Shown piece after piece: positions 1-18,177 of a DNA stretch of 50,163 bases. The stretch spans positions 1 through 50,163 of IMG/VR virus record IMGVR_UViG_3300009528_000007. One strand, 5' to 3'. The translations under genes and the position numbers were made by a program. This DNA is from a virus (Duplodnaviria > Caudoviricetes). The notes below the pieces were generated by a model that saw only the letters and a list, made by a program, of their open reading frames with translations, ran no database searches and was not told the origin of the DNA. The stretch's first letter is position 1, and the number at the start of each line of letters is the position of its first letter.

Positions 1-123
1 ATGTCGGAGATGGTGAATCAAATTTCCCAATGTTCCCTACTAAGTACTACAAGACAATGATGGCAAACCCAGAGAAGCAATCAATCTTTTGGTCTCAGCA
101 CCAGTGTAACCCACAGAAAGCGA
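1..123. repeat. Terminal direct repeat, copy 1 (identical to 50041-50163); circular-assembly overlap
   Basis: 123 nt exact match between the two window ends; the TerL frame runs continuously across the junction. Confidence 0.95.
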
Positions 124-812
124 CAGGGCTTACTAAGATTGAGAGAGAGTGGATTCATTTCTACAGAATAGAGGAGAGAGAGAAGGGTACTTACTTTGTT
201 TGTGACAAGTGTAAGATAGAAGTGCCATTGGCGGCGATCCCCCTGTACGGCATGGCTGACGTGGCTGGGTTTGGTGAGACTAAGTCCGTGAAGGGTGCGG
301 CGAGGAACGCACTGCTTGTCGGCGGGCAGCCCATAGACATGATACAGAAGTTTGTGGTGTTCGCCTGGGCGATGAGATTAAAAAAACCGAGCGTGTTTCG
401 AGAAAAGCTGTATGAGACACACAAAAAGTACAAACCCAGAGCGTGGAGAATAGATGACAAGGGCGTGGGGTCTACTATGTTCGGGGATATACTTGAAGAG
501 AGACAAAAGAAGTGTCCACAGATGAATATCTCCCCGCTACCTCATGATACACAAAAAGACATTAAAAATACCGATATCCAGGCACTCATAAATCCCGTAG
601 CTAATGGCGAGATTCATCTACATCAGACTATGACAGATTTAATTTCAGAGATGATACAATATCCTCGTGGGCTTACAGTAGACTTGGTTGAGATGTTGGC
701 GAAACTTAATCGTATCTACTGGATGAGAACCAAGATGGTGGATGTTTCTAAGTTCGCAAAAGAGAGTCATGTGTGGAGTGTGACAAGTAGAGACCAGACG
801 ACGGGGTATTGA
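1..812 (+). CDS. terL: Terminase large subunit, C-terminal RNase H-like nuclease part
   Basis: GMADVAG, IDDKGVG, K..DIQAL..PV..G.I and YPRGLTVDLVE motifs typical of TerL nuclease domains; follows the TerS-like ORF across the junction. Confidence 0.85.
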   Translation, partial: VGDGESNFPMFPTKYYKTMMANPEKQSIFWSQHQCNPQKATGLTKIEREWIHFYRIEEREKGTYFVCDKCKIEVPLAAIPLYGMADVAGFGETKSVKGAARNALLVGGQPIDMIQKFVVFAWAMRLKKPSVFREKLYETHKKYKPRAWRIDDKGVGSTMFGDILEERQKKCPQMNISPLPHDTQKDIKNTDIQALINPVANGEIHLHQTMTDLISEMIQYPRGLTVDLVEMLAKLNRIYWMRTKMVDVSKFAKESHVWSVTSRDQTTGY

Positions 813-983
813 TTATTTCTTTTTATTTATATCTTCTATCCTCACAACTCCCCTTCCAAAAGTAAATGGACTATCAGGGTTGCCAGTTTTACCCTCTTTG
901 TAAGTAACAACTTTAACACCCAGAAATTCCATTAATGCCCACACATCATCTCTTAGCTCTCTTAGCCTTTCTTCAGTGTTCAT
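813..983 (-). CDS. Hypothetical protein, 56 aa (MNTEERLRELRDD...)
   Basis: Manual translation; AGGAGG RBS upstream; converges on the terL stop. Confidence 0.6.
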   Translation of the reverse strand: MNTEERLRELRDDVWALMEFLGVKVVTYKEGKTGNPDSPFTFGRGVVRIEDINKKK

Positions 984-1032
984 TTTTTCCTCCTATTATT
1001 TTAGGAGCTTGACTTATCAAGCCCGCAGTATT

Positions 1033-1060
1033 GGTTAATATAACATTCCTTATGCAACAC
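1033..1060 (-). repeat. dif-like XerC/XerD site D1: GTGTTGCATAA GGAATG TTATATTAACC
   Basis: 11-6-11 layout resembling E. coli dif (GGTGCGCATAA TGTATA TTATGTTAAAT); the TAA stop of ORF 1050..1301 lies in the XerC arm. Confidence 0.7.
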
Positions 1061-1301
1061 AATCAGCCCGCATATAAACTCCCTTAATTCTCACATAAGC
1101 AACACCAGGATTTAATAGGGCTACAGATAGTTCGCCGTCATTCCCCGTTTCTGCCCAGTACGTTTTTACTTCATACAAAGAAATATTCATTATCCTTGCT
1201 ACTTCTTTTTGACTTGTGGTAGCAATAATTGTCCTCAGTTGTTTTAAGCCACTTTCTAATCTGTAAAATTCATTACCACCATAAACTTTTAATTTTCTCA
1301 C
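1050..1301 (-). CDS. Hypothetical protein flanked by dif-like sites
   Basis: 83-aa ORF with GGAGG RBS. Confidence 0.65.
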   Translation of the reverse strand: MRKLKVYGGNEFYRLESGLKQLRTIIATTSQKEVARIMNISLYEVKTYWAETGNDGELSVALLNPGVAYVRIKGVYMRADCVA

Positions 1302-1312
1302 CTTTACCTCCT

Positions 1313-1340
1313 AGCAGACATGATCTCCTCTATTTACCCC
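1313..1340 (-). repeat. Degenerate dif-like site D2 (XerD-like arm TCATGTCTGCT followed by AGGAGG)
   Basis: XerD-like arm plus RBS; the upstream stop TAG falls 6 bp before the arm, where the XerC-arm TAA would be. Confidence 0.45.
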
Positions 1341-1515
1341 GATTTTTTTCTATGAGTTTATCAATCAAGTTCCTCGCTTCCCTGATAGATTCTAATTTTA
1401 TTGGTAGTCCACTATGGTTGTGAATCGGGTCTTTCATCCATTCAATAACATCCTGTTCTCTTTTTCCTAGACATAAGCTTGCCATCCTTAACTCATGTTG
1501 TGTATCTCTTTTCAT
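1330..1515 (-). CDS. Hypothetical protein ending KNRGK*
   Basis: 61-aa ORF between D3 and D2. Confidence 0.6.
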   Translation of the reverse strand: MKRDTQHELRMASLCLGKREQDVIEWMKDPIHNHSGLPIKLESIREARNLIDKLIEKNRGK

Positions 1516-1528
1516 GTTAATACTCCCT

Positions 1529-1545
1529 AGTTAACATAATCTTCA
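1529..1545 (-). repeat. Half dif-like site D3: TGA AGA TTATGTTAACT, followed by AGGGAG
   Basis: Near-perfect XerD arm between a stop codon and an RBS; XerC arm lost. Confidence 0.55.
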
Positions 1546-1935
1546 CTTCCTCCCCCTCATCCCCTCAAGCTCCGCAAGAAGTTCCTCAACTTCATCCTGC
1601 TCTGTCCTCGGCTCTTGGGGCTTCACTTCTTTAATCTCACCACCGTAGAGTGGCTCTCCGAAGATCTCCTTGTGTATCTCGCCTAATAATTCAGCGACAT
1701 TTTTGAGCATATCGGGCTCGAAGCTGATGAACCTATATGGTCTCTGTAGGGACATGGAGATGCCCTTATCTTTCCCCTTATGTTGAAATATTTGGGTGAG
1801 TCTCACTTTGTGGTATGGAATCTCAGTCTCGTCATCCTTCTTGAATACACCCTTTTTGTGTGTAATGAAGAGTCCCTGTTTTTTCTTGTTCACGAAACAA
1901 TAGCCTTCGGACTTATGTAATTTAATTTTATTCAT
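1543..1935 (-). CDS. Hypothetical protein with acidic C-terminal helix (possible nucleic-acid-binding protein)
   Basis: 130-aa ORF; basic beta-rich N-terminus and acidic tail. Confidence 0.5.
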   Translation of the reverse strand: MNKIKLHKSEGYCFVNKKKQGLFITHKKGVFKKDDETEIPYHKVRLTQIFQHKGKDKGISMSLQRPYRFISFEPDMLKNVAELLGEIHKEIFGEPLYGGEIKEVKPQEPRTEQDEVEELLAELEGMRGRK

Positions 1936-2029
1936 TGTATTAACCCAATTCCTTGTTCCTTATTACAATCGTTGCCCCGTGGGAACGAAATACCCTAGCC
2001 AGCACACTTCAATCATTTTTTTTCATAGG

Positions 2030-2353
2030 TCACAACCTAATATCTTCAACTTCCTGAACAGGGTCATACTTTTTACCTGGCTTGAAATTATTTCTATTAA
2101 ATAACCCAGTATACTCTCTCCCTCTTCGTCTAATATATGTAGAAGGAAAGGTTCCAAATCTCAAAAACCACAGGGGGCAGTTTAGGTTGCAACAAAATTG
2201 TATTGTTTTGACGCCACCACAACAACAGTCAAGACATTGCTTTCTTATTTGCTTTAATGCAGATGGTCTTGGTAGTTTCATTTCTTTAAATTTTCTAAAT
2301 AAGAGTATGTCCCATCCCGCTTGAGTGCAGGAGCAGTAACGCATTTCTCCCAC
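2030..2353 (-). CDS. Cys-rich phage hypothetical protein
   Basis: IRKQCLDCCCG...C...CPLW..RFG motif; true start probably at MKLPRP. Confidence 0.55.
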   Translation of the reverse strand: MGEMRYCSCTQAGWDILLFRKFKEMKLPRPSALKQIRKQCLDCCCGGVKTIQFCCNLNCPLWFLRFGTFPSTYIRRRGREYTGLFNRNNFKPGKKYDPVQEVEDIRL

Positions 2354-2466
2354 AAGCCCTTAGCCCCACACTCACTACACTTGAAGCTCACTATCGCCCT
2401 CTCGGTGTGGAGTAGGATCTCGGTTTCGTAGTTGCATTTTTTGCATTGAAGTATGAATATCGGCAC
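2278..2466 (-). CDS. FmdB-like zinc-ribbon protein
   Basis: MPIFILQCKKC...CSECG pattern. Confidence 0.65.
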   Translation of the reverse strand: MPIFILQCKKCNYETEILLHTERAIVSFKCSECGAKGLWEKCVTAPALKRDGTYSYLENLKK

Positions 2467-2796
2467 TTACTTCTCCTCCTCAAGTACGGCTAATACGGCT
2501 TTCAGGCAAGCTTCAAGTGGGGTTTTACCTCTATAATGAGTAACGCAGAAAGTTGAGGAACTTATTTCTACTTGAAATGTTTTGTTTCCATGAAGCCAAT
2601 GTAAAGCCTCGAAATTCATTTTCAAAAACTCCAAGCAGTCGGATATAGTCCAAGATTGCATTTCTCCTGCATCCTTAACCATCTTAGCAAGTTCTTTCCA
2701 ACTTAAATTAGAGGGCTTCCACTTCGTATCTAAGATTTCTCCATGCTTTCTATAAATCTGCTTACACAGGCTTATTTCTTCTTTGGTGAATTTCAT
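2467..2796 (-). CDS. Phage hypothetical protein (ABA-sandwich-like C-terminus)
   Basis: GKTPLEACLKAVL motif; start MKFTKEE after AGGAGG. Confidence 0.5.
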   Translation of the reverse strand: MKFTKEEISLCKQIYRKHGEILDTKWKPSNLSWKELAKMVKDAGEMQSWTISDCLEFLKMNFEALHWLHGNKTFQVEISSSTFCVTHYRGKTPLEACLKAVLAVLEEEK

Positions 2797-3029
2797 GTCT
2801 CCTCCTTGTGTTTCTCGTAGAATCTCCTTAACTCTTCTCCCTTCCAATCCCGAAAAATATCTATAAAAACTAAATCATCCTCTGGCTTTTTCTCTCTTAC
2901 CACATCGAAATACCAGATATGTCTCGCACCACACTTACAGCACCATTGACTTAAAAAGCTATTAGTCTTCAGGGTTAGGGGAGGTTCCATCTCGTTAAAT
3001 TTAATTTTCACCTCACTCCTCCTTCTCAA
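2793..3029 (-). CDS. Hypothetical protein (CCxCG..H motif)
   Basis: ORF track; similar motif in ORF 18397..18696. Confidence 0.5.
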   Translation of the reverse strand: MRRRSEVKIKFNEMEPPLTLKTNSFLSQWCCKCGARHIWYFDVVREKKPEDDLVFIDIFRDWKGEELRRFYEKHKEET

Positions 3030-3257
3030 AGAAACAGCTCAGGAAATTTTTCAGCCTCATAATAACATATGCTTCCCTACTTTTTTTTCTTATAGAAGTC
3101 TATGGATATCCCAAGATTAAGAATGGTAATACCAAAAAAACTAAAAGACGGGTGTATATCTGCGTAGATATCGAGAAAATGGAGTGGAAAACAGCCACCA
3201 TCCTTCATGGAACAACTGCACCAATAATTTAAAAATTCAATTTTCATTTTCATCTCC

Positions 3258-3617
3258 TTAGTAGTAATCGTAATACTCTTTAATCCAGTATTTCCTGTCC
3301 TTCCAAATCCATATTTCTTTCCTACAGCCCTTGGGCATTTTTAGTGCTTGGATAGCATCTCTGGTTTTAGCATCACATCGGTTAGACTTTGTTTGGATAA
3401 AGAGTAGGTGAGAGCCATCTGGGGCTAGGGCGCAAACATCAAAGAGTCCAAACAAGTCTAATGAACAATACTTAGTCCTAATGACTTTCCAGATTAAGGA
3501 GATGGGCTTGTCTTTTATTTTGATTTTGTCTTGGGTATAGCCCATTTCTTTGAGTACATCCGCACAAGCCTTCTCTTTCCTTGTCCCCTTGGCTACCGTG
3601 TTAATCATTTTTTTCAT
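3258..3617 (-). CDS. Holliday junction resolvase-like PD-(D/E)XK nuclease (Hjc-like)
   Basis: KG.RKEK..AD.L...GY, DLFGLFDV.A and FIQTKS motifs. Confidence 0.7.
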   Translation of the reverse strand: MKKMINTVAKGTRKEKACADVLKEMGYTQDKIKIKDKPISLIWKVIRTKYCSLDLFGLFDVCALAPDGSHLLFIQTKSNRCDAKTRDAIQALKMPKGCRKEIWIWKDRKYWIKEYYDYY

Positions 3618-3885
3618 CCCTTATCTCCTCATTAAAGTTATCTTCTATGTACTTCTTGATATATCCTAACTCCTCCTCGGTTACGGTCTTGAAGTCCCAC
3701 TTCTCCCTAAGCTTCTCATACTCATCTACCCTGTCTGTGTGGAAATGTACTTCTTCTTTGTCGTAGGCATCTTTAGCTGGCTCGGGACTCACCTCCATGC
3801 GACACACGATCTTCACCTTTTGCTTCGGCCAGAATTCTTCCACAAAACTCAAAAAGTACTTATTCATCCACAATCTCCACGCCAA
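3601..3885 (-). CDS. Hypothetical protein
   Basis: ORF track; overlaps neighbours as in an operon. Confidence 0.5.
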   Translation of the reverse strand: MAWRLWMNKYFLSFVEEFWPKQKVKIVCRMEVSPEPAKDAYDKEEVHFHTDRVDEYEKLREKWDFKTVTEEELGYIKKYIEDNFNEEIRDEKND

Positions 3886-4072
3886 GCTCGGTAAGCATAT
3901 CCCTCATGGTGTCCTCTATGTAGCTTGCGTCTTGATTGTTATGAACCCTACTCCACGCCTCGTTAGCCCAGCCCTGAATGTCTCTCTTGGTTATCCTGAA
4001 CTTCTTGTACGCATCAGCCAAGCCCCTCTCATACTCCCTTACTTTTATTGCCAAGAGTTCACTCTTTCTCAC
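3860..4072 (-). CDS. Hypothetical protein downstream of dif-like site D4
   Basis: GTG start after an AGGAGG adjoining the XerD arm. Confidence 0.6.
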   Translation of the reverse strand: MRKSELLAIKVREYERGLADAYKKFRITKRDIQGWANEAWSRVHNNQDASYIEDTMRDMLTELGVEIVDE

Positions 4073-4083
4073 TTAGCCCTCCT

Positions 4084-4107
4084 AGTTGACATAATCTTAT
4101 GCGACAC
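4084..4107 (-). repeat. dif-like site D4: GTGTCGCATAA GA TTATGTCAACT (2-bp spacer)
   Basis: Both arms match the local consensus; spacer is truncated; stop of ORF 4097..4300 lies in the XerC arm. Confidence 0.8.
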
Positions 4108-4300
4108 GGCCTCCGAATAGGCGACAGTTATGAAATCCATATTTGTCAGTTCCTTTGAGGCGTTTTTTATGGGAAGTTCCTCTTATATCAAACCATGCAA
4201 GCCACCTGTGTTTTCCTTCTTGGTCTTTGCCAAGCCAAGGAATGATTAATTTCCCCCACGAAGATAAGGGGTCATGGATTTTGTCAAGTGGTCTATTCAT
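4097..4300 (-). CDS. Hypothetical protein in the D5-D4 module
   Basis: 67-aa ORF with GGAGG RBS. Confidence 0.6.
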   Translation of the reverse strand: MNRPLDKIHDPLSSWGKLIIPWLGKDQEGKHRWLAWFDIRGTSHKKRLKGTDKYGFHNCRLFGGRVA

Positions 4301-4436
4301 TCACTCCTCCTAAGTAGGTTTCGTGACATTTTGGGCAGAAATATTCATCTTTGCTTAATTGAATAACTTTACCCAACTTGTGATATTCGATATTGTATTT
4401 TTTAATTAATTTCTCTCCACAATTTTTACATCTCAT
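4293..4436 (-). CDS. Small zinc-ribbon protein, 47 aa (MRCKNCG...FCPKCHE)
   Basis: Manual translation; AGGAGGTG RBS directly after the D5 XerD arm. Confidence 0.65.
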   Translation of the reverse strand: MRCKNCGEKLIKKYNIEYHKLGKVIQLSKDEYFCPKCHETYLGGVNE

Positions 4437-4447
4437 TTTCACCTCCT

Positions 4448-4475
4448 AGTAGACATAATATCCCTTATCCGACAC
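4448..4475 (-). repeat. dif-like site D5: GTGTCGGATAA GGGATA TTATGTCTACT
   Basis: Full 11-6-11 site followed by AGGAGG. Confidence 0.8.
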
Positions 4476-4645
4476 TATTCCCTTTCAAGTTCCTCACTAC
4501 AAAATGGGCAATAAAATATTTGCATGTGTATTTCTTTTTTAATATCTGTCCTAAATCTACAAATGTAATAACTTTTGTTATACCAAGCAATAAAACCATT
4601 CTTTAAAGCTTTGTATCTCTTGTCACATTCGCAATATTTTCCCAT
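4475..4645 (-). CDS. Small Cys-containing protein, 56 aa (MGKYCEC...IFYCPFC)
   Basis: Manual translation; fills the interval between D6 and D5. Confidence 0.65.
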   Translation of the reverse strand: MGKYCECDKRYKALKNGFIAWYNKSYYICRFRTDIKKEIHMQIFYCPFCSEELERE

Positions 4646-4658
4646 TCTTACCTCCCGA

Positions 4659-4683
4659 AGTTGACATAATCCTTATGCGACAC
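4659..4683 (-). repeat. dif-like site D6: GTGTCGCATAA GGA TTATGTCAACT (3-bp spacer)
   Basis: Both arms match the consensus; GGGAGG follows. Confidence 0.8.
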
Positions 4684-4862
4684 TATAAACCCTTAAAATT
4701 AGTAAGGTTATAAAGGCTTTTTTCGTATGTTTCTCTAATCCTTCTTGTTTTCTCTAAATGCTCCTCAGATTTAAAATGTTCGATAGCTTCTAGGGATTTC
4801 GATGGGAAAGTTTTATTGCAAATCCCACATCGAATCATTCCTTTTGGTATTTTTTTCTTCAT
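4683..4862 (-). CDS. C2H2/U1-type zinc-finger-like small protein (MKKKIPKGMIRCGICNK...HFKSEEH)
   Basis: CxxC...H.....H pattern; start re-assigned to follow the AAGGAGG next to D7. Confidence 0.6.
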   Translation of the reverse strand: MKKKIPKGMIRCGICNKTFPSKSLEAIEHFKSEEHLEKTRRIRETYEKSLYNLTNFKGL

Positions 4863-4874
4863 CTTCACCTCCTT

Positions 4875-4902
4875 AGTTGACATAATTACTATTATGCGAC
4901 AC
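4875..4902 (-). repeat. dif-like site D7: GTGTCGCATAA TAGTAA TTATGTCAACT
   Basis: Canonical 28-bp dif layout. Confidence 0.85.
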
Positions 4903-4906
4903 TGAT

Positions 4907-5113
4907 TTATGGTCGCCACAATTCTGTTTCGTCTTGAAAATGCGGATACTCTGCTTTTAGGTATATTTCATGTTTACACATATCGCACTTATGGAGAAAA
5001 CTCGTGTCTGCAACACTTTGCAACTGGTATAACATTTTTCCCTTCTCACATTTCGGACACACATAATCAATCCTAATTTTATATACTTTCCTCCTAATTA
5101 AACTCATCCTCAC
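4907..5113 (-). CDS. Zinc-ribbon protein (CPKC...HKCDMC)
   Basis: ORF track. Confidence 0.6.
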   Translation of the reverse strand: MRMSLIRRKVYKIRIDYVCPKCEKGKMLYQLQSVADTSFLHKCDMCKHEIYLKAEYPHFQDETELWRP

Positions 5114-5116
5114 CTC

Positions 5117-5305
5117 CTAAGGCAACTCCTGTCCACACTTCTTACACACTCTCTCTTTGGGGATTATGAATCTCCTCACTTCCAAGAAAAGTATGTTCCA
5201 GAATCTAAACTCCGCATTCCTCTCGTTAGGCCACCAGCCCCAGTTGATACACCACCAAGAGAGAGATAGGGGCCACCGCACTACCTCCCAGTTACGCCAC
5301 CTCAT
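5117..5305 (-). CDS. Trp-rich hypothetical protein
   Basis: ORF track. Confidence 0.45.
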   Translation of the reverse strand: MRWRNWEVVRWPLSLSWWCINWGWWPNERNAEFRFWNILFLEVRRFIIPKERVCKKCGQELP

Positions 5306-5600
5306 CTAATCTCTCCTTGATTATTTCAAGAGCATCAATAACCACTTGAACAGAATCGGGATTCTCAAATCTCCACCTAGCGATTGTGTCCAACTCATCT
5401 GTAGTTTTCCCTACATCTCCTTCGAGTTTTGTTCCGATTGGCAGTGTTTGTTTTTCAAGTCTATAAATAATAAGCTCGTTGTTAAGTTGTCCTTTTTCTG
5501 CCCCATGAGCTATGCCTAAATCCCCATACCCAAACACAATGACCTCTCTTTTTCTATTCACCCTACCCTCCTCGGTATACTCGTCTGTTTCTCCACCCAC
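5292..5600 (-). CDS. Hypothetical protein
   Basis: ORF track; likely start VNRKREV after GGAGG. Confidence 0.55.
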   Translation of the reverse strand: MGGETDEYTEEGRVNRKREVIVFGYGDLGIAHGAEKGQLNNELIIYRLEKQTLPIGTKLEGDVGKTTDELDTIARWRFENPDSVQVVIDALEIIKERLDEVA

Positions 5601-5776
5601 CCTAGCCCCACGCCTATCCGTTCTGCCTCTCTCTTACACTTGGGACACAGAGAGTATCTGGGGTCTTGCCACATACCAGCCTTGAACCTTCGCCGACAGT
5701 CCTTCCTCCAGCACCTTGTCCACACTCCGCTCTGGTTGCCTCGTGCTTGCCTTCGAGGGAGAGATTTGATGTTCAT
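5558..5776 (-). CDS. Hypothetical Cys-containing protein
   Basis: ORF track. Confidence 0.45.
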   Translation of the reverse strand: MNIKSLPRRQARGNQSGVWTRCWRKDCRRRFKAGMWQDPRYSLCPKCKREAERIGVGLGWVEKQTSIPRRVG

Positions 5777-5930
5777 GCTTCTTTCTCCACATGAATAATC
5801 CTATCTCTAATCTCCAACCCGTTATCATAGATTAGGTGTATCAAGTCCTCTAATGCCATGTACTCCAGATTTTTAAAAAATTCAGGAGGTGATACTCGGC
5901 GTAACCAAGCTAAGGCTTCTGTTTTAGTCA

Positions 5931-6716
5931 TCACTCACTCCTTGGAATAATTATTTTATAAATCTGTTTGCGGTTATCTTTCTTCCCGCTCGTACACCCC
6001 TTAAATGTTACCTTAATATGCTCTGTGGTAGCCGAGGGCTTCGCTTTCTCCTCTGCGTAGCTACCGTCCCACTCAAGGGCAGAGCCAGTAATGTAGTTAT
6101 AACCGATATGTTTAAGCACCCTTGTCTTGCCTGCATCGTACCAGGTAAAGGGTATCCTGCTTGTAATGTGGAAATGCCCACTGAAGATGGCATCGGCAGT
6201 CGGTACTATCTTACGCAGGGCATCGGCACGGTTCACTTTGCCTCCGTGGGTGTAACCGCCCCCGTAGTTGTGATGAAAATAACAGGTAAATGAATTGGGT
6301 GTCTTGCTTTCCATCTGCAATACAGCAAGGGAAGAGTATCCACCATAGGGAACATCGAGTTGAATGCCGATGTATTGCTCGGGGGTTAACCCAACCATTC
6401 TATGTGTCCTGCTCTCATGGTTTCCTGCGATCATAAACAGACCCTTCTCCTTGACTGGAGATAAAACCTCTACAATGTACTCCATCTGTTCCTTCGGCGG
6501 TAGCACCTGTGTATATACATCTGACTTACTACCCACCACGGCATTCTCCATGAAGTCACCCATTCCAACCCAGTAAGCATCATTATCTCTTTCAATTTCT
6601 CTTATTATTTGCTTAATAAACTCCTCGTTACATTGCCGACTGCCAAAATGCCAGTCTCCTATTGGATATAGCGTTATTTGTTTTGTTTCAAACTTTCGAT
6701 GATAAAACTTCATCAA
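5931..6716 (-). CDS. Calcineurin-like metallophosphoesterase
   Basis: GDWHFG, MGD, GNHE, FHH and SGHFH motifs. Confidence 0.85.
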   Translation of the reverse strand: MMKFYHRKFETKQITLYPIGDWHFGSRQCNEEFIKQIIREIERDNDAYWVGMGDFMENAVVGSKSDVYTQVLPPKEQMEYIVEVLSPVKEKGLFMIAGNHESRTHRMVGLTPEQYIGIQLDVPYGGYSSLAVLQMESKTPNSFTCYFHHNYGGGYTHGGKVNRADALRKIVPTADAIFSGHFHITSRIPFTWYDAGKTRVLKHIGYNYITGSALEWDGSYAEEKAKPSATTEHIKVTFKGCTSGKKDNRKQIYKIIIPRSE

Positions 6717-7804
6717 TACCTTCCTTTTTTCTCAAATGGGTCTGAATCGTCATCATGCCATATACCTTGAGGAATTATCTTTGCCCCGTTAACTATCTTA
6801 AACTCATGCACAAGCCCCACGGGGTTGCGTGTTCCATGCCAGTTCTTCCCACTGATTATTTTCATCTTTCCCCACTGCATTGTTAGATACAGCCTTGCAT
6901 AATCAATAGTATAACCAGCACCACGCCCAAGTTCCTTGTATGATTCTTTTTGAATGACCACAATACAGAAGCCTCCACGTAATTTATCGTGAATGGCCTT
7001 TATTGTGTCTCCAATCCTCCATGCTTTATCTGGGGTTGCTATCCAATCAAATATTATGAAATCATCCTCTTTTCCTATTATCGCATCTCCATAGTTAGCA
7101 CTTCTTAGGTAAGGCGTGAAGTTCCAGTCCTCCACATCATCGAACTTCTCTAACCGTAGCTTTAATTCCTGCTCTGCCATCTCACATGAAAAATAATGTA
7201 TTTTGTGTTTGTGCATGTTCATGCGAATGATATTAAACATTAGTGTGCTCTTGCCACTGTCTTTGTTTCCCGCAACCACAACCACATTAGAGGGATAGAT
7301 ATCAACTAATTCCTCTATCGCGAAAGGCCAACTGATATCTAACGATTTCATTGGGGCATTTTTCCAGTCGAGAATTTCACTGTCAGCCATAACCCTTCTG
7401 TATTTGCCATCCTTATATGGACTTGGAAAGACAATGCCCTTGTCCTTCTCTCTAACTAGACAAGTAGAAATATTCTTTCGTAGCTTTCTTCTGCCCTCAT
7501 TATCTGTAGACAAATGTAGACTCTTATAGATATCATCTACCGAGAACCAAGCACCCTCTGTGGTCATAATGTAATCACTAACCTCTCTCGCCACACTGAG
7601 GCTCTCATCCTTGTTCCTCTCCACCATGTGGACGATACGCCCGATAGCTCTACTAAGGTCAATAGCATATGCATCAACAATCACGTCCTTTAACCATCGT
7701 TCTAACTGACGGGGACTCTCAACTTCGTAGATATTTTTAGGAAATTCGTTCTCATCGACGTACTCTACATTTACGTGAGTCCACTTCTTATTGTTCTTGT
7801 TCAC
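6713..7804 (-). CDS. Replication ATPase/helicase (DnaB/RecA-like P-loop)
   Basis: Walker A GNKDSGKS, YFSCEM, Walker B IIFD, VVIQK motif. Confidence 0.75.
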   Translation of the reverse strand: MNKNNKKWTHVNVEYVDENEFPKNIYEVESPRQLERWLKDVIVDAYAIDLSRAIGRIVHMVERNKDESLSVAREVSDYIMTTEGAWFSVDDIYKSLHLSTDNEGRRKLRKNISTCLVREKDKGIVFPSPYKDGKYRRVMADSEILDWKNAPMKSLDISWPFAIEELVDIYPSNVVVVAGNKDSGKSTLMFNIIRMNMHKHKIHYFSCEMAEQELKLRLEKFDDVEDWNFTPYLRSANYGDAIIGKEDDFIIFDWIATPDKAWRIGDTIKAIHDKLRGGFCIVVIQKESYKELGRGAGYTIDYARLYLTMQWGKMKIISGKNWHGTRNPVGLVHEFKIVNGAKIIPQGIWHDDDSDPFEKKGRY

Positions 7805-7979
7805 TCAAATCCACATCTTTAGGTAGTATCCTATCAATTGTCACCTCAGGGAACTCCAACCACTTGAGAATCACCCTGAATGTCTTAGCCCAAGCCCACA
7901 CATTGTCCTCCCAAGAAACATCGAGCTTCATTTTGATTCCATGTTGGTTTGTTACTTCTATAGATTCATTTTGTGGCAT
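7788..7979 (-). CDS. Hypothetical protein
   Basis: ORF track. Confidence 0.5.
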   Translation of the reverse strand: MPQNESIEVTNQHGIKMKLDVSWEDNVWAWAKTFRVILKWLEFPEVTIDRILPKDVDLSEQEQ

Positions 7980-8371
7980 TTTTTCTCCTGTTTTTAAATT
8001 TACCCACTTCTAACTCAAACCCAAGGATGGTGATAGAGAAATATCGAGGAGTATAATAATTCCAAAACTCACCACACCATAACAACTCAAGCAGAGTAAA
8101 CCACCCACTCCTTACAGACCAGTAATTCCAAGTGCTGTTTATTGAAATATACCACCCGTGTTGAGTTGGTTTTATTAAATATTTCATTCCTTCCTCCTTG
8201 CTCTCGCCTGCCACCCCAGAATCCAACTCAGGACACAGATGAACTTTATATCCTCACCTTGTAAGTAAAAGGTGAACATCTTGCCCTGTAAGTCCTCCGG
8301 GGCTTTATCCTAAAGCTTACCCCCACGCTTGTACTTCTCTGGTAAGTGGGGGGTGTCTTTCGAACTAAACA

Positions 8372-8992
8372 TTATGTTTTCTTGAGGATGCGAAAGGTTT
8401 GACCATGTTGTTCAACTTTATACCCATCCTCATGCCCAGAACATATTTGAAAACCCCCCTTATTTACATATGCCATTTTATCTCCATTTAAATATGTCCC
8501 ATAGAGCAAGTAGGGGAGCGTAGCTCCTTTATAATTCTCTGTAATCCATGTAATCTCACCCGTAACATCCACCCACTCTTCCCTTTTCTCTTCCTTCACA
8601 TAACCCGTTAGCGCTTCCCACTTTGAGTCCTTTTCCTCTTCTTCCATCCACCAGATATATACCTTGCGTAAGAAATTAAGCTCGGCTAGGGCGTTGGCTG
8701 GGGTTTTGTCATTAAAGAAATCATTGTATGGTGTTCCAGAGCAACTACCCAAACCTTCTTTAGTGTGTGGCCTTATCGGACATGATTGACCACATACATA
8801 GCGTTCACCATCGGGACTCTCCAATAAGCACAAGGCACACGCCGAATCATTAAAATAATCCACATCCTCCACAATCCTCTCCCACCTCTCAATCGTTTTC
8901 TTAAACGCCTCTTTGATTTGTTCCCTAGTTGGTTCATTCATTTTACTACCTCCTAAGATTTTCTTCATTCCAATCTTCCGAATCCCCCACAT
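8372..8992 (-). CDS. Hypothetical Cys-containing phage protein
   Basis: CALC...C..CPI...C motif; likely start MNEPTRE. Confidence 0.55.
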   Translation of the reverse strand: MWGIRKIGMKKILGGSKMNEPTREQIKEAFKKTIERWERIVEDVDYFNDSACALCLLESPDGERYVCGQSCPIRPHTKEGLGSCSGTPYNDFFNDKTPANALAELNFLRKVYIWWMEEEEKDSKWEALTGYVKEEKREEWVDVTGEITWITENYKGATLPYLLYGTYLNGDKMAYVNKGGFQICSGHEDGYKVEQHGQTFRILKKT

Positions 8993-9218
8993 CGCTCATT
9001 ATCTCCTCGATGCGATCCGAGAGGATTTCTATTTCATCAATCCCCTCATCAATAGTTTCTTGTAATTCTTGGTTTTTTTGTTCAAGAACTTCATTCTGAA
9101 CTTTTAACTCAGCAATAAAAACCACCGCCCCAGTCAGCATAACCATCAAGATAGCAACCAAGGTAATCAAGGCATATTGGAAGTAGTGGTCTTTCATCTC
9201 ACCCACACCTTCCACCAC
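8946..9218 (-). CDS. Membrane-anchored coiled-coil protein
   Basis: N-terminal hydrophobic helix followed by coiled coil. Confidence 0.55.
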   Translation of the reverse strand: MVEGVGEMKDHYFQYALITLVAILMVMLTGAVVFIAELKVQNEVLEQKNQELQETIDEGIDEIEILSDRIEEIMSDVGDSEDWNEENLRR

Positions 9219-9388
9219 TTGCGTTTGTAGTCTTTACAATCATTGTGAGCATTTACCGCCCAGGGGTCTTGTCCTTTCCATGTTCTTTTCCTAATTGCAG
9301 TGCTATATAATTCCTTCTTTGGGAAACACCACTCTCCGTACTCACTAAAACAACAATGCCTACAATCCTCACAATAAACTTTCTTCAT
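9194..9388 (-). CDS. Cys-rich hypothetical protein
   Basis: KVYCEDCRHC...N.HNDCKDY. Confidence 0.55.
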   Translation of the reverse strand: MKKVYCEDCRHCCFSEYGEWCFPKKELYSTAIRKRTWKGQDPWAVNAHNDCKDYKRKWWKVWVR

Positions 9389-10044
9389 TTCCCAATCTCC
9401 TTCCTTAGATTATAAATATCCAAGCATCTCAAAAATATTTCCCAATGCACACTCACATCTTCTCTCTGCCCCTCCCTGAATCCCTTGTCTTTATCTGTGG
9501 GTATCACCAACACCTTGCAAGCACTAACCTTCTTTCCACTCTCTTTTAAGAGGTTCACATACGCTGAGAGCTGGATAAATTGATCGTCATAAATCCCACT
9601 GGATTTGAAGTCAAGGAGTGTCTCACACCCATCAACAAAACCATAGAAGTCGGGTGTACCCCCATACTTGTATGTTTCTGACACCAACTGCTCCTCCAAA
9701 AGGAGGGGTTTGAGTTTGTGTTGCTTCTCCCACTTTAAGAATGACTCAAAGCTGTTGCCCGCCAAGTCAATCTGGTTCTGTGAGTAGTCGGACGTGGTGA
9801 CTTCTTCACCCCTCAAGTGGTGAAATATCATAGAGTGGGCTAAAGTACCGATGTCAGCGAGGAAGTCTAGGTGTTTTCTATGGTCTATCCCATCTCTACC
9901 CAGCTTCCAGTACCAGTTATAGAGTGGGAACTTGGCGAGGATGCCCGTGATGGTCGTGACTCCCGCAACCTGAGTTCCACTCTCAAGCCTGTAGCGAGTG
10001 TGAGCCTTGGTTTTCATCAATCCCAAAGTTTTATAACCCAACAA
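9385..10044 (-). CDS. PD-(D/E)XK exonuclease (Cas4/lambda-exonuclease-like)
   Basis: GVTTIT, GT.AH, YGGTPD, LLDFKS and QLSAY motifs. Confidence 0.85.
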   Translation of the reverse strand: MLGYKTLGLMKTKAHTRYRLESGTQVAGVTTITGILAKFPLYNWYWKLGRDGIDHRKHLDFLADIGTLAHSMIFHHLRGEEVTTSDYSQNQIDLAGNSFESFLKWEKQHKLKPLLLEEQLVSETYKYGGTPDFYGFVDGCETLLDFKSSGIYDDQFIQLSAYVNLLKESGKKVSACKVLVIPTDKDKGFREGQREDVSVHWEIFLRCLDIYNLRKEIGK

Positions 10045-10177
10045 TCTTCCTTTTCTTCCCAGCTAGCCTCACACGTATATTCTTTTCCAGATTCGCTCAC
10101 AACCTTTCCTTTAATCCCATCAATTTCATTTTCAAGTAAATTAATAAGCCCATTAATAGTTAAATATATTACATCGC

Positions 10178-10687
10178 TCATTTCTCAATCTCTTCTTTAA
10201 TCATCTCCCAAAGAGCCTTGAACTTCTCTCCTATCCCCTCCTCACTCATCTTGCTCAAGTCGAGGAGATTCATCAGCCCCAACGCCCCCTGCATAGCAGA
10301 GATAGAGTTCTTGTCAATCCTGTCTATCCCTCTTCTCTGCTTAACGGGAGGCTTCTCCACGCCCTCTTCTTCGGGGGGTTCTTCGGGGAGTTCATCATTC
10401 CCTACGAGCTTGATTGAGCTGAAGTTCTTGAATCCCTTGGCATTCTGTATGTACTCAATCTCCACTGTGTCGCCCTCGCTCACACCCTCGATGTATTTAC
10501 CCACCTTAGAATCGAAGGTACTGAACCACTCACCGTCAGAACTAAGAAGGGCATACCTGAGTCCATCGCCCGCAGGCTTGACGCTTACGAGTTTTACTCG
10601 TTTTGTAACATTCATATTCACTCCTTTAAAATTATTTATTATCTTATATTCTCCGAACACACGCTTGAAGTCTGCGAGTGTTGCCAA
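10178..10687 (-). CDS. Putative single-stranded DNA-binding (OB-fold) protein
   Basis: WFSTFD...GDTVEIEY...GFKN pattern; adjacent to the exonuclease; likely start MNVTK. Confidence 0.55.
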   Translation of the reverse strand: MATLADFKRVFGEYKIINNFKGVNMNVTKRVKLVSVKPAGDGLRYALLSSDGEWFSTFDSKVGKYIEGVSEGDTVEIEYIQNAKGFKNFSSIKLVGNDELPEEPPEEEGVEKPPVKQRRGIDRIDKNSISAMQGALGLMNLLDLSKMSEEGIGEKFKALWEMIKEEIEK

Positions 10688-10691
10688 TTAT

Positions 10692-10901
10692 TTATTTCTT
10701 GGTTTTCTTGCTACTGTCAGCCCTCTTTTTCTCAGCCAAGAAGCTCATTGAGTGTCCATTGGGACAATAAAAAGCCTCCAAGTCTCTTATCCTCTGCTCT
10801 CGAAGTTCACGGGGCATAACAAACGTAACCCCACAATCAACACAGGTTTCAGTTGTTAAGTTTGTCTTAACCCATATTTCTTCACTCATGTTTTCCTCCA
10901 T
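10692..10901 (-). CDS. Zinc-binding hypothetical protein (CVDCG...FYCPNGH)
   Basis: ORF track. Confidence 0.6.
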   Translation of the reverse strand: MEENMSEEIWVKTNLTTETCVDCGVTFVMPRELREQRIRDLEAFYCPNGHSMSFLAEKKRADSSKKTKK

Positions 10902-11122
10902 TCCTTATTTTTAATCCCACAGTAAAGACGGGTTAAACCTGCAACCTGAACTTGCCGACACCCCTCACTACACCCCAAACAGATATCAAGGGTAGGGTAG
11001 TCCCGAGATCGTGCCTCTATGAGGCTCTCCTGTGTTTTCAGCCAAAAGATTCGATCTATAAATGGGACTTTAGCTTTTTGCCTATCTTCTTTCTCTACCA
11101 ACTCCATGATGTTAATTAGCAT
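10886..11122 (-). CDS. Hypothetical protein
   Basis: ORF track; downstream of a sigma70-like promoter. Confidence 0.5.
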   Translation of the reverse strand: MLINIMELVEKEDRQKAKVPFIDRIFWLKTQESLIEARSRDYPTLDICLGCSEGCRQVQVAGLTRLYCGIKNKEWRKT

Positions 11123-11146
11123 AGCACACCTTTTAAATTATGTCAA
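11118..11146 (-). promoter_or_regulatory. sigma70-like promoter TTGACA-N17-TATGCT
   Basis: Consensus -35 with 17-bp spacer. Confidence 0.6.
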
Positions 11147-11538
11147 GCCCATCCCATTCCTTTCGCTATTAGCTTGACAAACAAGTAAACGAGATACCAG
11201 CCACCCGCACAGATGGCAGATATAACCAGGAATCCCACGACGAATCCCCGGTTTATTCTTCTTAAAATATTCATCTAAGCCTCCTCACCACAACTCTTTA
11301 AGTTGTTTTCCAATCTCATGGCATAGCCACACGAAGCACACGACTATGAGTAAGGGCAAGAGATAGTCAATCATTTTTCTCTCCTTTAGGCTCATACACC
11401 ACCCTCCCCACTCCTTGCTTTTTCTTCTTGCACCCCTCACAGCAGATGACAAACCAGATGCCGACCTGTTTACCAGTGAGATCCTCTTCTTTGAATTCTT
11501 TACCGCAGATATCACAGTGGGGGAGTGGGGTGGTCATT

Positions 11539-11685: not shown

Positions 11686-11700
11686 TTTTTCCTCCTTTCC

Positions 11701-13374: not shown

Positions 13375-13707
13375 TTAATAAAATCTTGGTTTTGAATACT
13401 TAGAAAACCTTATCCAGTTACCATTCCTTAGCTCACTCTCAATGGGTGAATAAGGCTGTTGTTTTTTTAAGAAATGATATATATGATACAAGGACTTTTG
13501 GCTTATCCGCTCAGTCTTTTCATTGATAATTCGCCATAGAGTCATGGCAGATACCCCGATCATAAACTTAGCAAGTCTATGGAAAGAATAGGGATGGGTG
13601 GAGTGGTAGTTGCGGAGTGAATCTAGTAAGACTTCTTTGTGTTTACTATAATCTTGTGTCGCATAACGGTTATTATGTCTAGCATCATTCATCTTTTGCC
13701 TCACCAT
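13375..13707 (-). CDS. Putative HTH DNA-binding protein
   Basis: SFHRLAKFMIGVSAMTLWRII HTH-like segment. Confidence 0.55.
   Translation of the reverse strand: MVRQKMNDARHNNRYATQDYSKHKEVLLDSLRNYHSTHPYSFHRLAKFMIGVSAMTLWRIINEKTERISQKSLYHIYHFLKKQQPYSPIESELRNGNWIRFSKYSKPRFY
13656..13683 (+). repeat. dif-like site D8: GTGTCGCATAA CGGTTA TTATGTCTAGC
   Basis: Full 11-6-11 site, opposite in orientation to D1-D7. Confidence 0.75.
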
Positions 13708-17286: not shown

Positions 17287-17314
17287 GGTTCGCATAACTA
17301 CTATTATGTCAACT
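17287..17314 (+). repeat. dif-like site D9: GGTTCGCATAA CTACTA TTATGTCAACT (candidate attP or dimer-resolution site)
   Basis: Best match to canonical dif; alone in a non-coding region of about 400 bp. Confidence 0.8.
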
Positions 17315-18176: not shown

Positions 18177-18177
18177 C

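What the first reader, a model, noticed from the sequence alone, without database searches (positions are those of the whole stretch)
4084..4902. Integron-like gene-cassette array built from directly repeated dif (XerC/XerD) sites in a phage
Seen: four sites in the same orientation within 820 bp. Read on the minus strand they are D7 GTGTCGCATAA-TAGTAA-TTATGTCAACT, D6 GTGTCGCATAA-GGA-TTATGTCAACT, D5 GTGTCGGATAA-GGGATA-TTATGTCTACT and D4 GTGTCGCATAA-GA-TTATGTCAACT. Each sits at a gene boundary. The upstream ORF stops inside or within 5 bp of the XerC arm, and the GGAGG RBS of the next ORF starts within 3 bp of the XerD arm. The intervals hold 1-2 promoterless mini-genes, mostly Cys/zinc-binding proteins of 47-67 aa. 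Established: the 11-6-11 layout matches chromosomal dif (E. coli GGTGCGCATAA TGTATA TTATGTTAAAT) bound by XerCD. Dif modules are known on Acinetobacter plasmids (pdif, usually inverted pairs), and IMEX phages use single attP sites. Inference: this phage captures, stacks and excises single-gene cassettes using host XerCD, acting as an integrase-free integron analogue. I am not aware of this being described for tailed phages.
Basis: partly seen in the sequence, partly recalled or inferred. Interest (0 to 1): 0.92.

Follow-up and report, generated by a model that had tools for sequence, protein, structure and literature searches.

The report
Host-dif copies between phage mini-genes
A tailed phage of an uncultured bacterium carries exact copies of its host's chromosome-resolution site (dif) between tiny early genes, and in about a hundred related phage fragments these copies mark the points where genes have been swapped.

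Summary
Four co-oriented sites lie at 4084-4107, 4448-4475, 4659-4683 and 4875-4902 (minus strand), each between a stop codon and the next ribosome-binding site.

The resemblance to dif is real:
- The two 11-nt arms are identical (22 of 22) to a single-copy site in low-GC MAGs, some labelled Ca. Aminicenantes.
- In a 6.47-Mb contig of another phylum, a site with the same core lies 3.07 Mb from dnaA.
- Five related phage records, three of them 99-100% complete, have no tyrosine or serine recombinase. The host MAGs carry XerD-like genes.

I collected 288 such sites on about 103 related viral and metagenome contigs. The sites stay conserved while the genes between them differ. Ends of nucleotide homology are enriched about fourfold at the sites. 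Several recombinants have their crossover inside a site.

The integron-like reading is only partly supported:
- Only 137 of 288 sites have the canonical 6-nt spacer. The rest have 0-5 nt, yet their arms are just as conserved.
- I found no precise one-cassette insertion or deletion, no excised circle and no prophage.
- Gene junctions without a site are also highly mosaic.

Best reading: host-dif copies act as portable cassette junctions, most likely through host XerCD acting on the canonical sites. My literature searches listed no description of this in tailed phages.

The parts
4875..4902 (-). Site D7: left (XerC-type) arm, 6-nt spacer tagtaa, right (XerD-type) arm. It lies between w1 and w2.
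   Evidence: A site with identical arms and spacer occurs in relative G004 between unrelated genes. Contigs of the source run break exactly at 4875-4904.
4659..4683 (-). Site D6: perfect arms with a 3-nt spacer gga (non-canonical). It lies between w2 and w3.
   Evidence: The 'gga' spacer recurs in G001 and L162.
4448..4475 (-). Site D5: one mismatch in each arm and a 6-nt spacer gggata. It lies between w3 and w4.
   Evidence: The same spacer occurs in G004 and G002 and in the dif-type site of MAG locus L083.
4084..4107 (-). Site D4: perfect arms with a 2-nt spacer ga (non-canonical). Its TAA is the stop codon of w5. It lies between w5 and w6.
   Evidence: The 'ga' spacer recurs in G004, G003, L143 and L162.
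4907..5113 (-). w1, a 68-aa Cys-rich mini-protein upstream of D7.
   Evidence: zinc-ribbon match below cut-off. A 62%-identical homologue in L250 is followed by a site with spacer GTCA and different downstream DNA.
4683..4862 (-). w2, a 59-aa mini-protein with a C2H2-like motif. It is the single gene of the unit between D7 and D6 (191 nt).
   Evidence: No homologue was found in the other contigs.
4475..4645 (-). w3, a 56-aa Cys-rich mini-protein. It is the single gene of the unit between D6 and D5 (183 nt).
   Evidence: No homologue was found in the other contigs.
4293..4436 (-). w4, a 47-aa protein with two CxxC pairs. It is the first gene of the two-gene unit between D5 and D4.
   Evidence: An 89%-identical homologue (35 aa aligned) in L249 forms a single-gene unit between sites with spacers CTACGA and GTGAAA. 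A 52%-identical homologue lies in L261.
4097..4300 (-). w5, a 67-aa protein that overlaps the end of w4 and ends in the TAA of the D4 left arm.
   Evidence: A 70%-identical homologue in L210 is followed by a site with spacer GGTCA.
3860..4072 (-). w6, a 70-aa protein that forms the conserved flank downstream of the array.
   Evidence: It is 81% identical in L236 behind a decayed right-arm remnant. It is 35% identical in G004, where no site precedes it.
1033..1060 (-). Degenerate site in the same orientation (1 + 3 mismatches, 6-nt spacer) at the end of ORF 1050-1301.
1529..1539 (-). Right-arm-only copy (TTATGTTAACT) followed by a ribosome-binding site. A weaker one lies at about 1301-1325.
   Evidence: repeat family D4, 6 copies.
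13656..13683 (+). Site A, in the opposite orientation. It has a perfect left arm, the spacer cggtta (identical to the dif-type site of MAG loci L087 and L100) and a degenerate right arm. It lies in the 5' end of ORF 13375-13707, beside a gene that reads by eye like an XRE-type HTH regulator; neither gene matched Pfam or PHROGs.
   Evidence: An equivalent site occurs in G001. A contig of the source run joins window 13649 onward to 18 nt that equal the left flank of the L087 site.
17287..17314 (+). Site B, in the opposite orientation, with a 6-nt spacer ctacta. It lies in the non-coding divergent region. It could be an attP-like or a multimer-resolution site.
   Evidence: The site plus about 38 nt of upstream flank is conserved in G004 (68 nt, 82%).
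9385..10044 (-). Phage exonuclease (phrog_298). With the SbcD-like exonuclease at 5931-6716 it is a possible phage recombination function, relevant to the homologous-recombination rival.

Best explanation
The four sites are copies of the host chromosome's dif site: an XerC-type arm, a spacer and an XerD-type arm. They sit as junctions between small promoterless gene units in the early operon of a tailed phage. In this phage lineage they are the conserved, portable borders at which units are gained, lost and exchanged.

The recombinase is most likely the host XerC/XerD pair acting rarely on sites with a 6-nt spacer. That would be FtsK-independent single-strand exchange resolved by replication, as in known Xer-exploiting elements. 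The phages have no recombinase of their own.

Sites with 0-5-nt spacers are probably no longer Xer substrates. They persist as junction modules that supply a stop codon, sometimes a Shine-Dalgarno sequence and a start codon, and 22 nt of shared sequence.

Shown: identity to the dif-type site, placement, conservation, mosaic breakpoints at the sites, and absence of a phage recombinase. Inferred: XerCD catalysis, the mode of strand exchange, and the 'locked' state of short-spacer sites.
For: 1. Identity with dif.
In 109 of 120 the next base is T.
- 5 of 5 genomes tested hold exactly one copy.
- In one 6.47-Mb contig the copy lies 3.07 Mb from dnaA.
- The exact phage arms occur in low-GC (0.35-0.43) MAG loci. 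These include the spacers CGGTTA (as in window site A) and GGGATA (as in D5).
- Three candidate host MAGs each have two or more XerD-family genes.

2. No phage recombinase. PF00589 and PF00239 match 0 of 5 related phage records, three of them 99-100% complete.

3. Conserved sites with changing genes.
- Relative G004 (neighbouring gene 72% identical) has five full and two half sites at another genome position. The spacers tagtaa, gggata and ga recur there, but none of w1-w5 does.
- I found 288 sites on about 103 contigs. The 172 site-to-site units have a median length of 309 nt.

4. Breakpoints.
- 112 of 445 internal ends of homology lie within 10 nt of a site, against a null mean of 29.5 (maximum 47).
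- Given upstream homology, synteny breaks at 126 of 156 site junctions against 173 of 283 site-less gene junctions.
- L209, L251 and L234 share an upstream unit up to the left arm and then continue into three different units.
- L228 combines the left side of L218 with the right side of L223 inside a site.
- Between the conserved flanks w0 and w6 (about 81% nt), the window and L236 hold entirely different units.

5. Adjacent sites with identical 6-nt spacers are rare (1 of 39, null 1.7). Adjacent identical short spacers are enriched (10 of 48, null 3.8, P=0.005). This is what is expected if only 6-nt sites delete the DNA between them.

6. Spacers longer than 6 nt are almost absent (2 of 288), although 7-8 nt were searched.
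Against: - 151 of 288 sites, including D6 and D4 here, have spacers other than 6 nt. Their arms are no more decayed (non-trigger sites: 1.5-2.1 mismatches for 2-5 nt against 2.0 for 6 nt).
- Short spacer variants such as GA, GGA and GGGAA recur across different phages with different flanking genes. Whatever conserves the arms therefore does not need canonical XerCD spacing.
- No pair showing a precise one-unit insertion or deletion between conserved flanks was found (0). All 17 pairs with both flanks shared had the same middle.
- Site-less gene junctions also break often (61%).
- Crossover points could not be mapped to the spacer borders.
- No second site lies within the fetched stretch (2.7-8 kb) around the host site in 17 of 17 loci.
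- No relative of the terminase was found in 339 genomes of the candidate host's class.
- The only public run holding the phage is kept as contigs. It showed no joint within the array.
- Arm variants do not cluster by contig.
- The phage has exonucleases that could support homologous recombination at short shared sequences.
- The candidate host is uncertain. Record titles of the exact-arm MAGs disagree: Aminicenantes, 'Eubacteriales', 'Chitinophagales' and one archaeal label.
Confidence: 0.55

Rival explanations
1. The dif-like sequence is only a conserved linker. Units are shuffled by homologous or short-homology recombination between co-infecting phages, using the 22-28 shared bases. Host RecA or the phage's own exonuclease-based system would do this. 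XerCD plays no present role.
For: - Breakpoints fall at sites whatever the spacer length.
- Short-spacer variants are shared between phages with different flanking genes.
- The phage encodes an exonuclease (phrog_298) and an SbcD-like nuclease.
- Site-less junctions are also mosaic.
- No precise cassette insertion was seen.
Against: - It does not explain why the linker is a 22-of-22 copy of the candidate hosts' single-copy dif-type site.
- It does not explain why spacers stop at 6 nt.
- It does not explain why adjacent identical 6-nt spacers are rare while short ones are enriched.
- It does not explain why the same phages carry further sites with host-type spacers in non-coding or regulatory DNA.
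- 11-nt arms are very short for homologous recombination (general knowledge, not tested here).
Confidence: 0.2
2. The arms are protein-binding sites with a regulatory or takeover role. Host XerC and XerD might bind each arm separately as transcription roadblocks, or be titrated away from the chromosome. A phage DNA-binding protein might use them as co-oriented intergenic operators, like the 'stoperators' of Cluster A mycobacteriophages (recalled, not checked here). Mosaicism would then be a by-product.
For: - Arms are equally conserved whatever the spacing.
- All array sites are co-oriented with transcription and sit between a stop codon and a ribosome-binding site.
- Two further sites lie beside a gene that looks by eye like an HTH regulator (no family match) and in the divergent control region.
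Against: - Nothing was identified that would bind them.
- Sites are confined to a hypervariable mini-gene stretch rather than spread over operons.
- A binding role does not predict the enrichment of homology breakpoints or the 6-nt upper limit.
- Titration by 4-8 sites per genome is speculative.
Confidence: 0.12
3. The sites are decaying scars of past Xer-mediated insertions of tiny selfish circles, or of repeated integration and excision at the host dif. They have no present function.
For: - Decayed remnants exist: the right-arm remnant before w6 in L236, half sites in G004 and in the window, and truncated right arms in L216 and L183.
- The spacer series looks like stepwise deletion.
Against: - Many sites have perfect arms in phages whose proteins are only 35-72% identical. 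That needs selection or continual renewal.
- No integrated copies and no units at the host dif were found.
Confidence: 0.1
4. It is a chance resemblance, or an intercistronic translation signal (stop, Shine-Dalgarno, start) that merely looks like dif, or an RNA element.
For: - The site supplies the stop codon for 10 of 29 called upstream ORFs and an in-arm ATG for 6 of 34 called downstream ORFs.
Against: - There is 22-of-22 identity to candidate host sites, including shared spacers.
- RNA folds are no better than shuffles (z from -1.73 to +0.77).
- There is no Rfam match.
- Promoter-like sites are fewer than in shuffles (12 against 18.0).
Confidence: 0.02

Closest known systems
pdif (Xer-site) modules of Acinetobacter plasmids
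   Same: Both have several copies of a XerC/XerD-type site on one replicon. The copies bound small gene modules that appear in different contexts, and no dedicated recombinase gene is present. I saw this only in search listings and abstracts (PMC9771954, PMC10132070, bioRxiv 10.1101/2022.01.12.475240) and from recall.
   Different: - The pdif sites flanking a module are, as I recall, in inverted orientation with 6-nt spacers, on plasmids, and the modules have their own promoters.
- Here the sites are direct repeats co-oriented with one operon.
- The units are single promoterless mini-genes of 113 to about 900 nt.
- Half the spacers are shortened.
- The replicon is a tailed phage.
IMEX: integrative mobile elements exploiting Xer (CTXphi, VGJphi, TLCphi; also double jelly-roll vibriophages)
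   Same: Both lack their own integrase and carry dif-like sites matching the host dif. Window sites A and B have a host-type spacer or a conserved non-coding setting, as an attP would. I saw abstracts only (PMC4246890, PMC6744903, PMC12715192, PMC9966536).
   Different: - Known IMEX are filamentous or non-tailed phages or islands, with one attP, integrated at the host dif.
- Here the phage is tailed (portal, terminase, tail spike).
- It has 4-8 extra sites inside an operon.
- No integrated copy was found.
- No DUF3653 match was found. The link between DUF3653 and the TLCphi activator is recalled, not checked.
Integrons (IntI, attI, attC cassettes)
   Same: Both have a row of promoterless, mostly single-gene units in one orientation. 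Each unit is bounded by a recombination-type site, the content is hypervariable, and the flanks are conserved.
   Different: There is no integrase, no attI and no attC-type folded single-strand site. Fold energies are no better than shuffles. The sites copy the host dif. This is an analogy of layout, not membership.
   Same: Both are short conserved intergenic repeats at which gene modules are exchanged between related phages.
   Different: Those repeats are promoter or terminator-type sequences, or sequences specific to the phage. Here the repeat is an exact copy of a host recombination site.

Membership tests
XerC/XerD dif-type recombination site | Two 11-nt arms matching the host's chromosomal dif | tested here: met
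   22 of 22 arm positions are identical to single-copy sites in low-GC MAG loci (L087, L100, L040, L041, L086, L028, L083, L109, L112, L127, L122). There is one copy per genome in 5 of 5 genomes.
XerC/XerD dif-type recombination site | Central region of 6 nt (6-8 in known systems; recalled) | tested here: inconclusive
   Met by D7 and D5. Not met by D6 (3 nt) or D4 (2 nt). Across 288 sites the counts are 137 with 6 nt, 149 with 0-5 nt and 2 with 7-8 nt.
XerC/XerD dif-type recombination site | Bound and recombined by XerC and XerD | not testable with these tools
   I could only show that candidate host MAGs encode XerD-family genes, with two or more matches in each of 3 genomes.
IMEX (Xer-exploiting integrative element) | No integrase of its own | tested here: met
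   PF00589 and PF00239 match 0 of 5 phage records at E<=0.1. The controls respond in 14 and 13 of 14 genomes.
IMEX (Xer-exploiting integrative element) | Found integrated at the host dif, flanked by dif-like sites | tested here: not met
   The terminase fragment matched 0 of 339 genomes of the class of the L087 genome. All 17 host loci hold a single site and no phage genes other than a ParB relative. One contig of the source run may be a host-phage junction at 13649, but I could not inspect it.
Integron | IntI tyrosine recombinase with attI and a Pc promoter next to the array | tested here: not met
   There is no PF00589 match. Promoter-like sites are not in excess.
Integron | attC sites (imperfect palindromes that recombine as folded single strands) | tested here: not met
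   Only a 5-nt inverted core is present. Fold z-scores run from -1.73 to +0.77.
pdif modules | Modules flanked by Xer sites in inverted orientation (recalled definition) | tested here: not met
   All array sites are direct repeats. Only 6 of about 103 contigs have sites in both orientations.
Stoperator-type operators | A phage repressor binds co-oriented intergenic sites spread through the operons | not testable with these tools
   Co-orientation and intergenic placement are met. No binding protein is known. The sites are confined to one short region.

The most novel reading that the evidence does not exclude
A lineage of tailed phages of an uncultured, low-GC bacterial group (possibly Aminicenantes) runs an integrase-free gene-cassette system built on copies of the host dif site.

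Host XerCD occasionally recombines the canonical 6-nt copies, within a genome and between co-infecting genomes. This shuffles single promoterless mini-genes, which are likely host-takeover or counter-defence proteins, into and out of the early operon. Spacer shortening then locks useful cassettes in place.

The same phages may also use a further dif copy (site A or B) to integrate at, or be resolved like, the host chromosome. This would be a functional analogue of the integron that needs no element-encoded enzyme.
Probability: 0.35. Interest if true: 0.9.

Novelty: new variant of a known kind. Interest (0 to 1): 0.8.

Why it matters
Xer-exploiting elements are known as single-site integrators (filamentous and non-tailed phages, islands) and as dif modules on Acinetobacter plasmids. 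Rows of host-dif copies that separate promoterless mini-genes inside the operon of a tailed phage would be new. The pattern recurs on about a hundred related environmental contigs.

If host XerCD drives the exchange, it would extend the use of a universal housekeeping recombinase to cassette shuffling in viruses. It would also offer a mechanistic answer to how hypervariable early-gene regions of phages are rebuilt at gene borders.

The finding gives a practical handle as well:
- The arms identify the host by its dif.
- The sites delimit candidate accessory genes, about 170 units in this data set, for functional screens.

If XerCD turns out not to act on the sites, an unusually clear conserved recombination junction with an unexplained origin still remains.

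Tried and rejected
- **RNA element.** Folds of the four sites are no better than shuffles. There is no Rfam family in 1-18000. Rejected.
- **Promoters or terminators at the sites.** There were 12 promoter-like sites against 18.0 in shuffles, and no minus-strand terminator in the array. On the opposite strand the right arm contains TTGACA, but by my reading no -10 box follows at 16-18 nt. Rejected.
- **Known phages.** blastn of 3600-5600 against 50,697 phage records gave no match.
- **Prophage search.** The terminase fragment matched 0 of 339 genomes. The host-flank-plus-arm pattern gave 0 hits in viral contigs.
- **Second arm variant.** GCGTCGCATAA gave only 2 single-site viral contigs, which I did not analyse further. 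So I could not show the same layout for hosts with another dif variant.
- **Covariation of arm variants with contig.** None was found.
- **Crossover mapping.** The 15 upstream-only and 6 downstream-only homologous pairs gave no consistent point.
- **Precise cassette insertion or replacement.** I found 0 pairs and 17 trivial pairs.
- **Read evidence.** Only one run holds the region. It is probably the source sample and is kept as contigs. It shows no joint within the array and one unrelated 635-nt skip at 8352-8988. I could not inspect the loose end at 13649 further.
- **XafT-like activator.** DUF3653 matched 0 of 5 records. The link between this family and the activator is recalled.
- **Scans with mostly chance hits.** The right-arm-plus-RBS scan of viral contigs gave 26 stretches. 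Five repeated contigs already held (L133, L134, L135, L139, L140). Of the 21 new stretches only two were new arrays (L162, L168); one more (L157) has a right arm and RBS only, and the other 18 look like chance.
- **Rows dropped.**
  - G002 (same contig as L176) and G003a were left out of the unit and breakpoint counts.
  - Seven further near-duplicate contigs (L259, L232, L265, L256, L244, L235, L260) were left out only.
  - HSP pairs are not independent, because some contigs come from the same populations.
- **Not seen.** Supplements of papers were closed and not consulted. They may list dif-like sites in phages that I could not see. All papers were seen only as search listings and abstract starts.
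Full report
**What is in the window**

The window is a complete virus record of 50,163 bp with a 123-bp terminal repeat. It is a tailed phage, with a portal, both halves of the terminase large subunit, a head-tail adaptor match and tail-spike-like repeats. Genes from about 800 to about 15,500 run on the minus strand. Genes from 17,500 onward run on the plus strand.

Their spacers are 6, 3, 6 and 2 nt. Each site lies between the stop codon of one small ORF and the GGAGG-type ribosome-binding site of the next. The gapped pattern matches 4 times on the minus strand, 0 times on the plus strand and 0 times for the backwards-read control.

The same operon holds decayed copies at 1033-1060, 1529-1539 and about 1301-1325. 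Two full sites lie in the opposite orientation:
- Site A (13656-13683) has a degenerate right arm. It sits in the 5' end of ORF 13375-13707, beside a gene that reads by eye like an HTH regulator. Neither gene matched Pfam or PHROGs.
- Site B (17287-17314) sits in the non-coding divergent region.

**Is it really dif?**

I scanned one genome per species for the core TCGCATAA-N6-TTATGTCAAC. In 109 of 120 the next base is T, as in the phage.

The hits fall in Polyangiaceae and Sorangium, in MAGs labelled Aminicenantes, and in other groups, with one hit per stretch. In 5 of 5 genomes checked there is exactly one copy. In a 6.47-Mb Terriglobia contig the copy lies 3.07 Mb from dnaA. In an Aminicenantes MAG it is not on the dnaA contig. 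I take this to be the chromosomal dif of these groups.

The exact phage arms (22 of 22) occur in eleven loci of 0.35-0.51 GC, ten of them at 0.35-0.43 (the phage is 0.41). Their record titles disagree: Ca. Aminicenantes, 'uncultured Eubacteriales', 'Chitinophagales' and one archaeal label. However, 13 of the 17 low-GC loci I scanned share a ParB-like gene beside the site. In L087 I also read the ORFs, and a ParA-like gene lies just upstream of it. Four of those 13 carry an Aminicenantes label.

Two of the eleven exact-arm loci (L087, L100) have the spacer CGGTTA, the same as window site A. One (L083) has GGGATA, the spacer of D5. The MAGs behind L087, L117 and L120 each have two or more XerD-family matches.

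The single public run that holds the phage is probably its source. It has a contig that matches the window from 13649 onward and is preceded by 30 other letters. The last 18 of these equal the left flank of the L087 site. So a close relative of that MAG lives in the same sample. The contig could even be a host-phage junction, but I could not inspect it.

**No recombinase in the phages**

Phage_integrase and Resolvase profiles match 0 of 5 related records, three of which are 99-100% complete. The controls respond. DUF3653 is also absent.

**Relatives**

The SbcD-like gene at 5931-6716 led to five related viral contigs. The closest is G004 (52.9 kb, 72% identity in that protein). It has five full and two half sites, placed between the helicase and the SbcD-like gene instead of downstream of it. 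The spacers tagtaa, gggata and ga recur there, but none of the window's units w1-w5 does.

Pattern scans found 16 viral contigs with exact arms, two more arrays and 93 metagenome contigs. Together these give 288 sites on about 103 contigs. Only 6 contigs have sites in both orientations.

The three near-complete genomes share one plan: an array in one orientation, and one or two further sites in the other orientation in regulatory or non-coding DNA. Site B and about 38 nt of its upstream flank are conserved between the window and G004 (68 nt, 82%).

**Units and junctions**

The 172 complete site-to-site units have a median length of 309 nt. Most are 113 to about 900 nt, which is one or two mini-genes.

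The site often supplies coding signals:
- 10 of 29 called upstream ORFs end in the left arm's TAA.
- 6 of 34 called downstream ORFs start at the ATG inside the right arm. In at least two of these (G004 15323, G002 7012) there is no ribosome-binding site after the arm, and the purine-rich spacer is in the right place.

The window's units give only sub-threshold zinc-ribbon or C2H2 matches. Promoter-like sites are not in excess and no terminator separates the units.

**Evidence for exchange at the sites**

Clustering the units by nucleotide similarity gave 52 clusters, and many occur with different neighbours. The clearest cases come:
- L209, L251 and L234 share a nearly identical upstream unit through the left arm, then continue into three unrelated units.
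- L228 has the left side of L218 and the right side of L223, with the change inside the site.
- A conserved upstream gene (cluster 1) is followed in five contigs by four different spacers and five different units.

The window's own units behave the same way:
- w4 recurs in L249 as a single-gene unit between sites with spacers CTACGA and GTGAAA.
- w1 recurs in L250 followed by a GTCA site.
- w5 recurs in L210 followed by a GGTCA site.
- The flanks w0 and w6 recur in L236 at about 81% nt identity. Between them the window has 1,011 nt (five genes, four sites). L236 has 663 nt of unrelated genes with two sites, plus a decayed right-arm remnant before w6.

Two counts put numbers on this:
- 112 of 445 internal ends of nucleotide homology lie within 10 nt of a site. 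Random placement in the same regions gives a mean of 29.5 and a maximum of 47 in 200 trials.
- Given homology upstream of a gene junction, synteny breaks at 126 of 156 pairs for junctions with a site and at 173 of 283 for junctions without one.

The pairs are not independent. The 'without' class probably includes decayed sites and some false ORF ends.

**Evidence that does not fit canonical Xer recombination**

- Spacer lengths are 6 nt (137 sites), 5 (61), 4 (33), 2 (30), 3 (18), 0 (7), 7 (1) and 8 (1).
- Arms of short-spacer sites are as well conserved as those of 6-nt sites.
- A small set of short spacers recurs across phages with different flanking genes: GGGAA 26 times, GA 20, GGA 14, GTCA 14.
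- I found no pair in which one contig has flank-site-flank and another has flank-site-unit-site-flank (0). All 17 pairs that share both flanks also share the middle.
- The crossover could not be placed at a spacer border.
- No units sit beside the host site.
- No prophage was found.
- The available contigs show no deletion joint within the array.

**Points in favour of Xer activity on the canonical sites**

- Spacers longer than 6 nt are almost absent, although I searched up to 8 nt.
- Adjacent sites with identical 6-nt spacers are rare (1 of 39, null 1.7). Adjacent identical short spacers are enriched (10 of 48, null 3.8, P=0.005). That is the pattern expected if repeated active sites delete what lies between them and shortened sites do not. 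The numbers are small.
- The source-run contigs break exactly at 4875-4904, which is D7 plus two bases. This means another sequence in that sample shares the site but not its flanks. It is one of five such breaks in the first 20 kb.

**Reading**

I consider the following well supported:
1. The sites are copies of the host dif.
2. They are conserved, portable junctions of a hypervariable mini-gene region.
3. Exchange between phages happens preferentially at them.

That host XerCD performs the exchange is the most economical inference. It rests on the identity to dif, the lack of a phage enzyme, the 6-nt ceiling and the spacer-repeat asymmetry. It remains unproven, and half the sites cannot be canonical substrates.

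The main rival is homologous recombination at the shared 22-28 nt, perhaps through the phage's exonuclease (phrog_298) and SbcD-like nuclease. A binding or regulatory role for the arms would explain their spacing-independent conservation, but it would not explain the breakpoints.

**Comparison with known systems**

This is not an integron, because it has no IntI, attI or attC. It is not a classical IMEX, because it is tailed, has many sites and has no known integrated form. It differs from Acinetobacter pdif modules in site orientation, unit size, promoterless units and replicon type.

Three full-text searches listed Xer-exploiting filamentous and double jelly-roll phages and pdif modules. They listed nothing on dif arrays in tailed phages (listings and abstract starts only). 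I rate this as a new variant of a known kind.

No earlier findings were used.

Noticed in passing
window 13649-13683: A contig of the single public run matches the window from 13649 onward. It is preceded by 30 other letters, and the last 18 equal the left flank of the dif-type site in MAG locus L087. This could be a host-phage (attL-type) junction through site A, or only the host's own dif region.
   Followed up: partly
window 17200-17420; G004 28554-28620: Site B lies in a C-rich non-coding stretch between the divergent operons. The site plus about 38 nt upstream is conserved in G004 (68 nt, 82%), while downstream DNA is not. This may be an attP or a multimer-resolution site with an accessory flank.
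   Followed up: partly
window 17502-17554, 18175-18227, 19298-19327 (+): Three copies of a repeat (GACTTGACAT...TTTAC TTTAT) read as sigma-70-type promoters, with TTGACA, 17 nt, then TATTAT or TATACT. They stand ahead of the plus-strand genes.
   Followed up: no
window 3795-3811 (-): A left-arm-like sequence (9 of 11) is followed directly by GGAGGTG inside ORF 3601-3885. It may be a relic of a site whose right arm was lost, so this ORF could be a fusion or mis-called.
   Followed up: no
L087 2703-4377 and 12 other host loci; G001 1427-3103: In 13 of 17 low-GC host loci a ParB-like gene lies within about 1 kb of the single dif-type site. In L087, the one locus whose ORFs I read, a ParA-like gene lies just upstream of it. 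Phage G001 encodes a 558-aa ParB-like protein (31-40% identical over about 150 aa) just after its array.
   Followed up: partly
window 42284-42951 and 38055-39062 (+): There are three tandem copies of about 210-240 nt (69-70% identical) inside ORF 42262-43563. Many 51-nt-spaced repeats lie inside the tail-spike-like ORF 37749-39809.
   Followed up: no
window 17517-18176 (+): An N6/N4 DNA methyltransferase (PF01555, E=2e-22) is the first gene of the plus-strand operon.
   Followed up: no
window 8352-8988: One contig of the source run skips 635 nt here (depth 7.7 against about 16). This suggests a variant that lacks most of ORF 8372-8992. No dif-like site lies at either end.
   Followed up: no
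L216 921-950; L183 895-925: Close relatives of the window's gene 3258-3617 (95-96% aa) are preceded by a site whose right arm lacks its first four bases (left arm, 3 nt, GTCAACT, then a ribosome-binding site). The window has no site there, and the upstream ORF overlaps the gene.
   Followed up: partly
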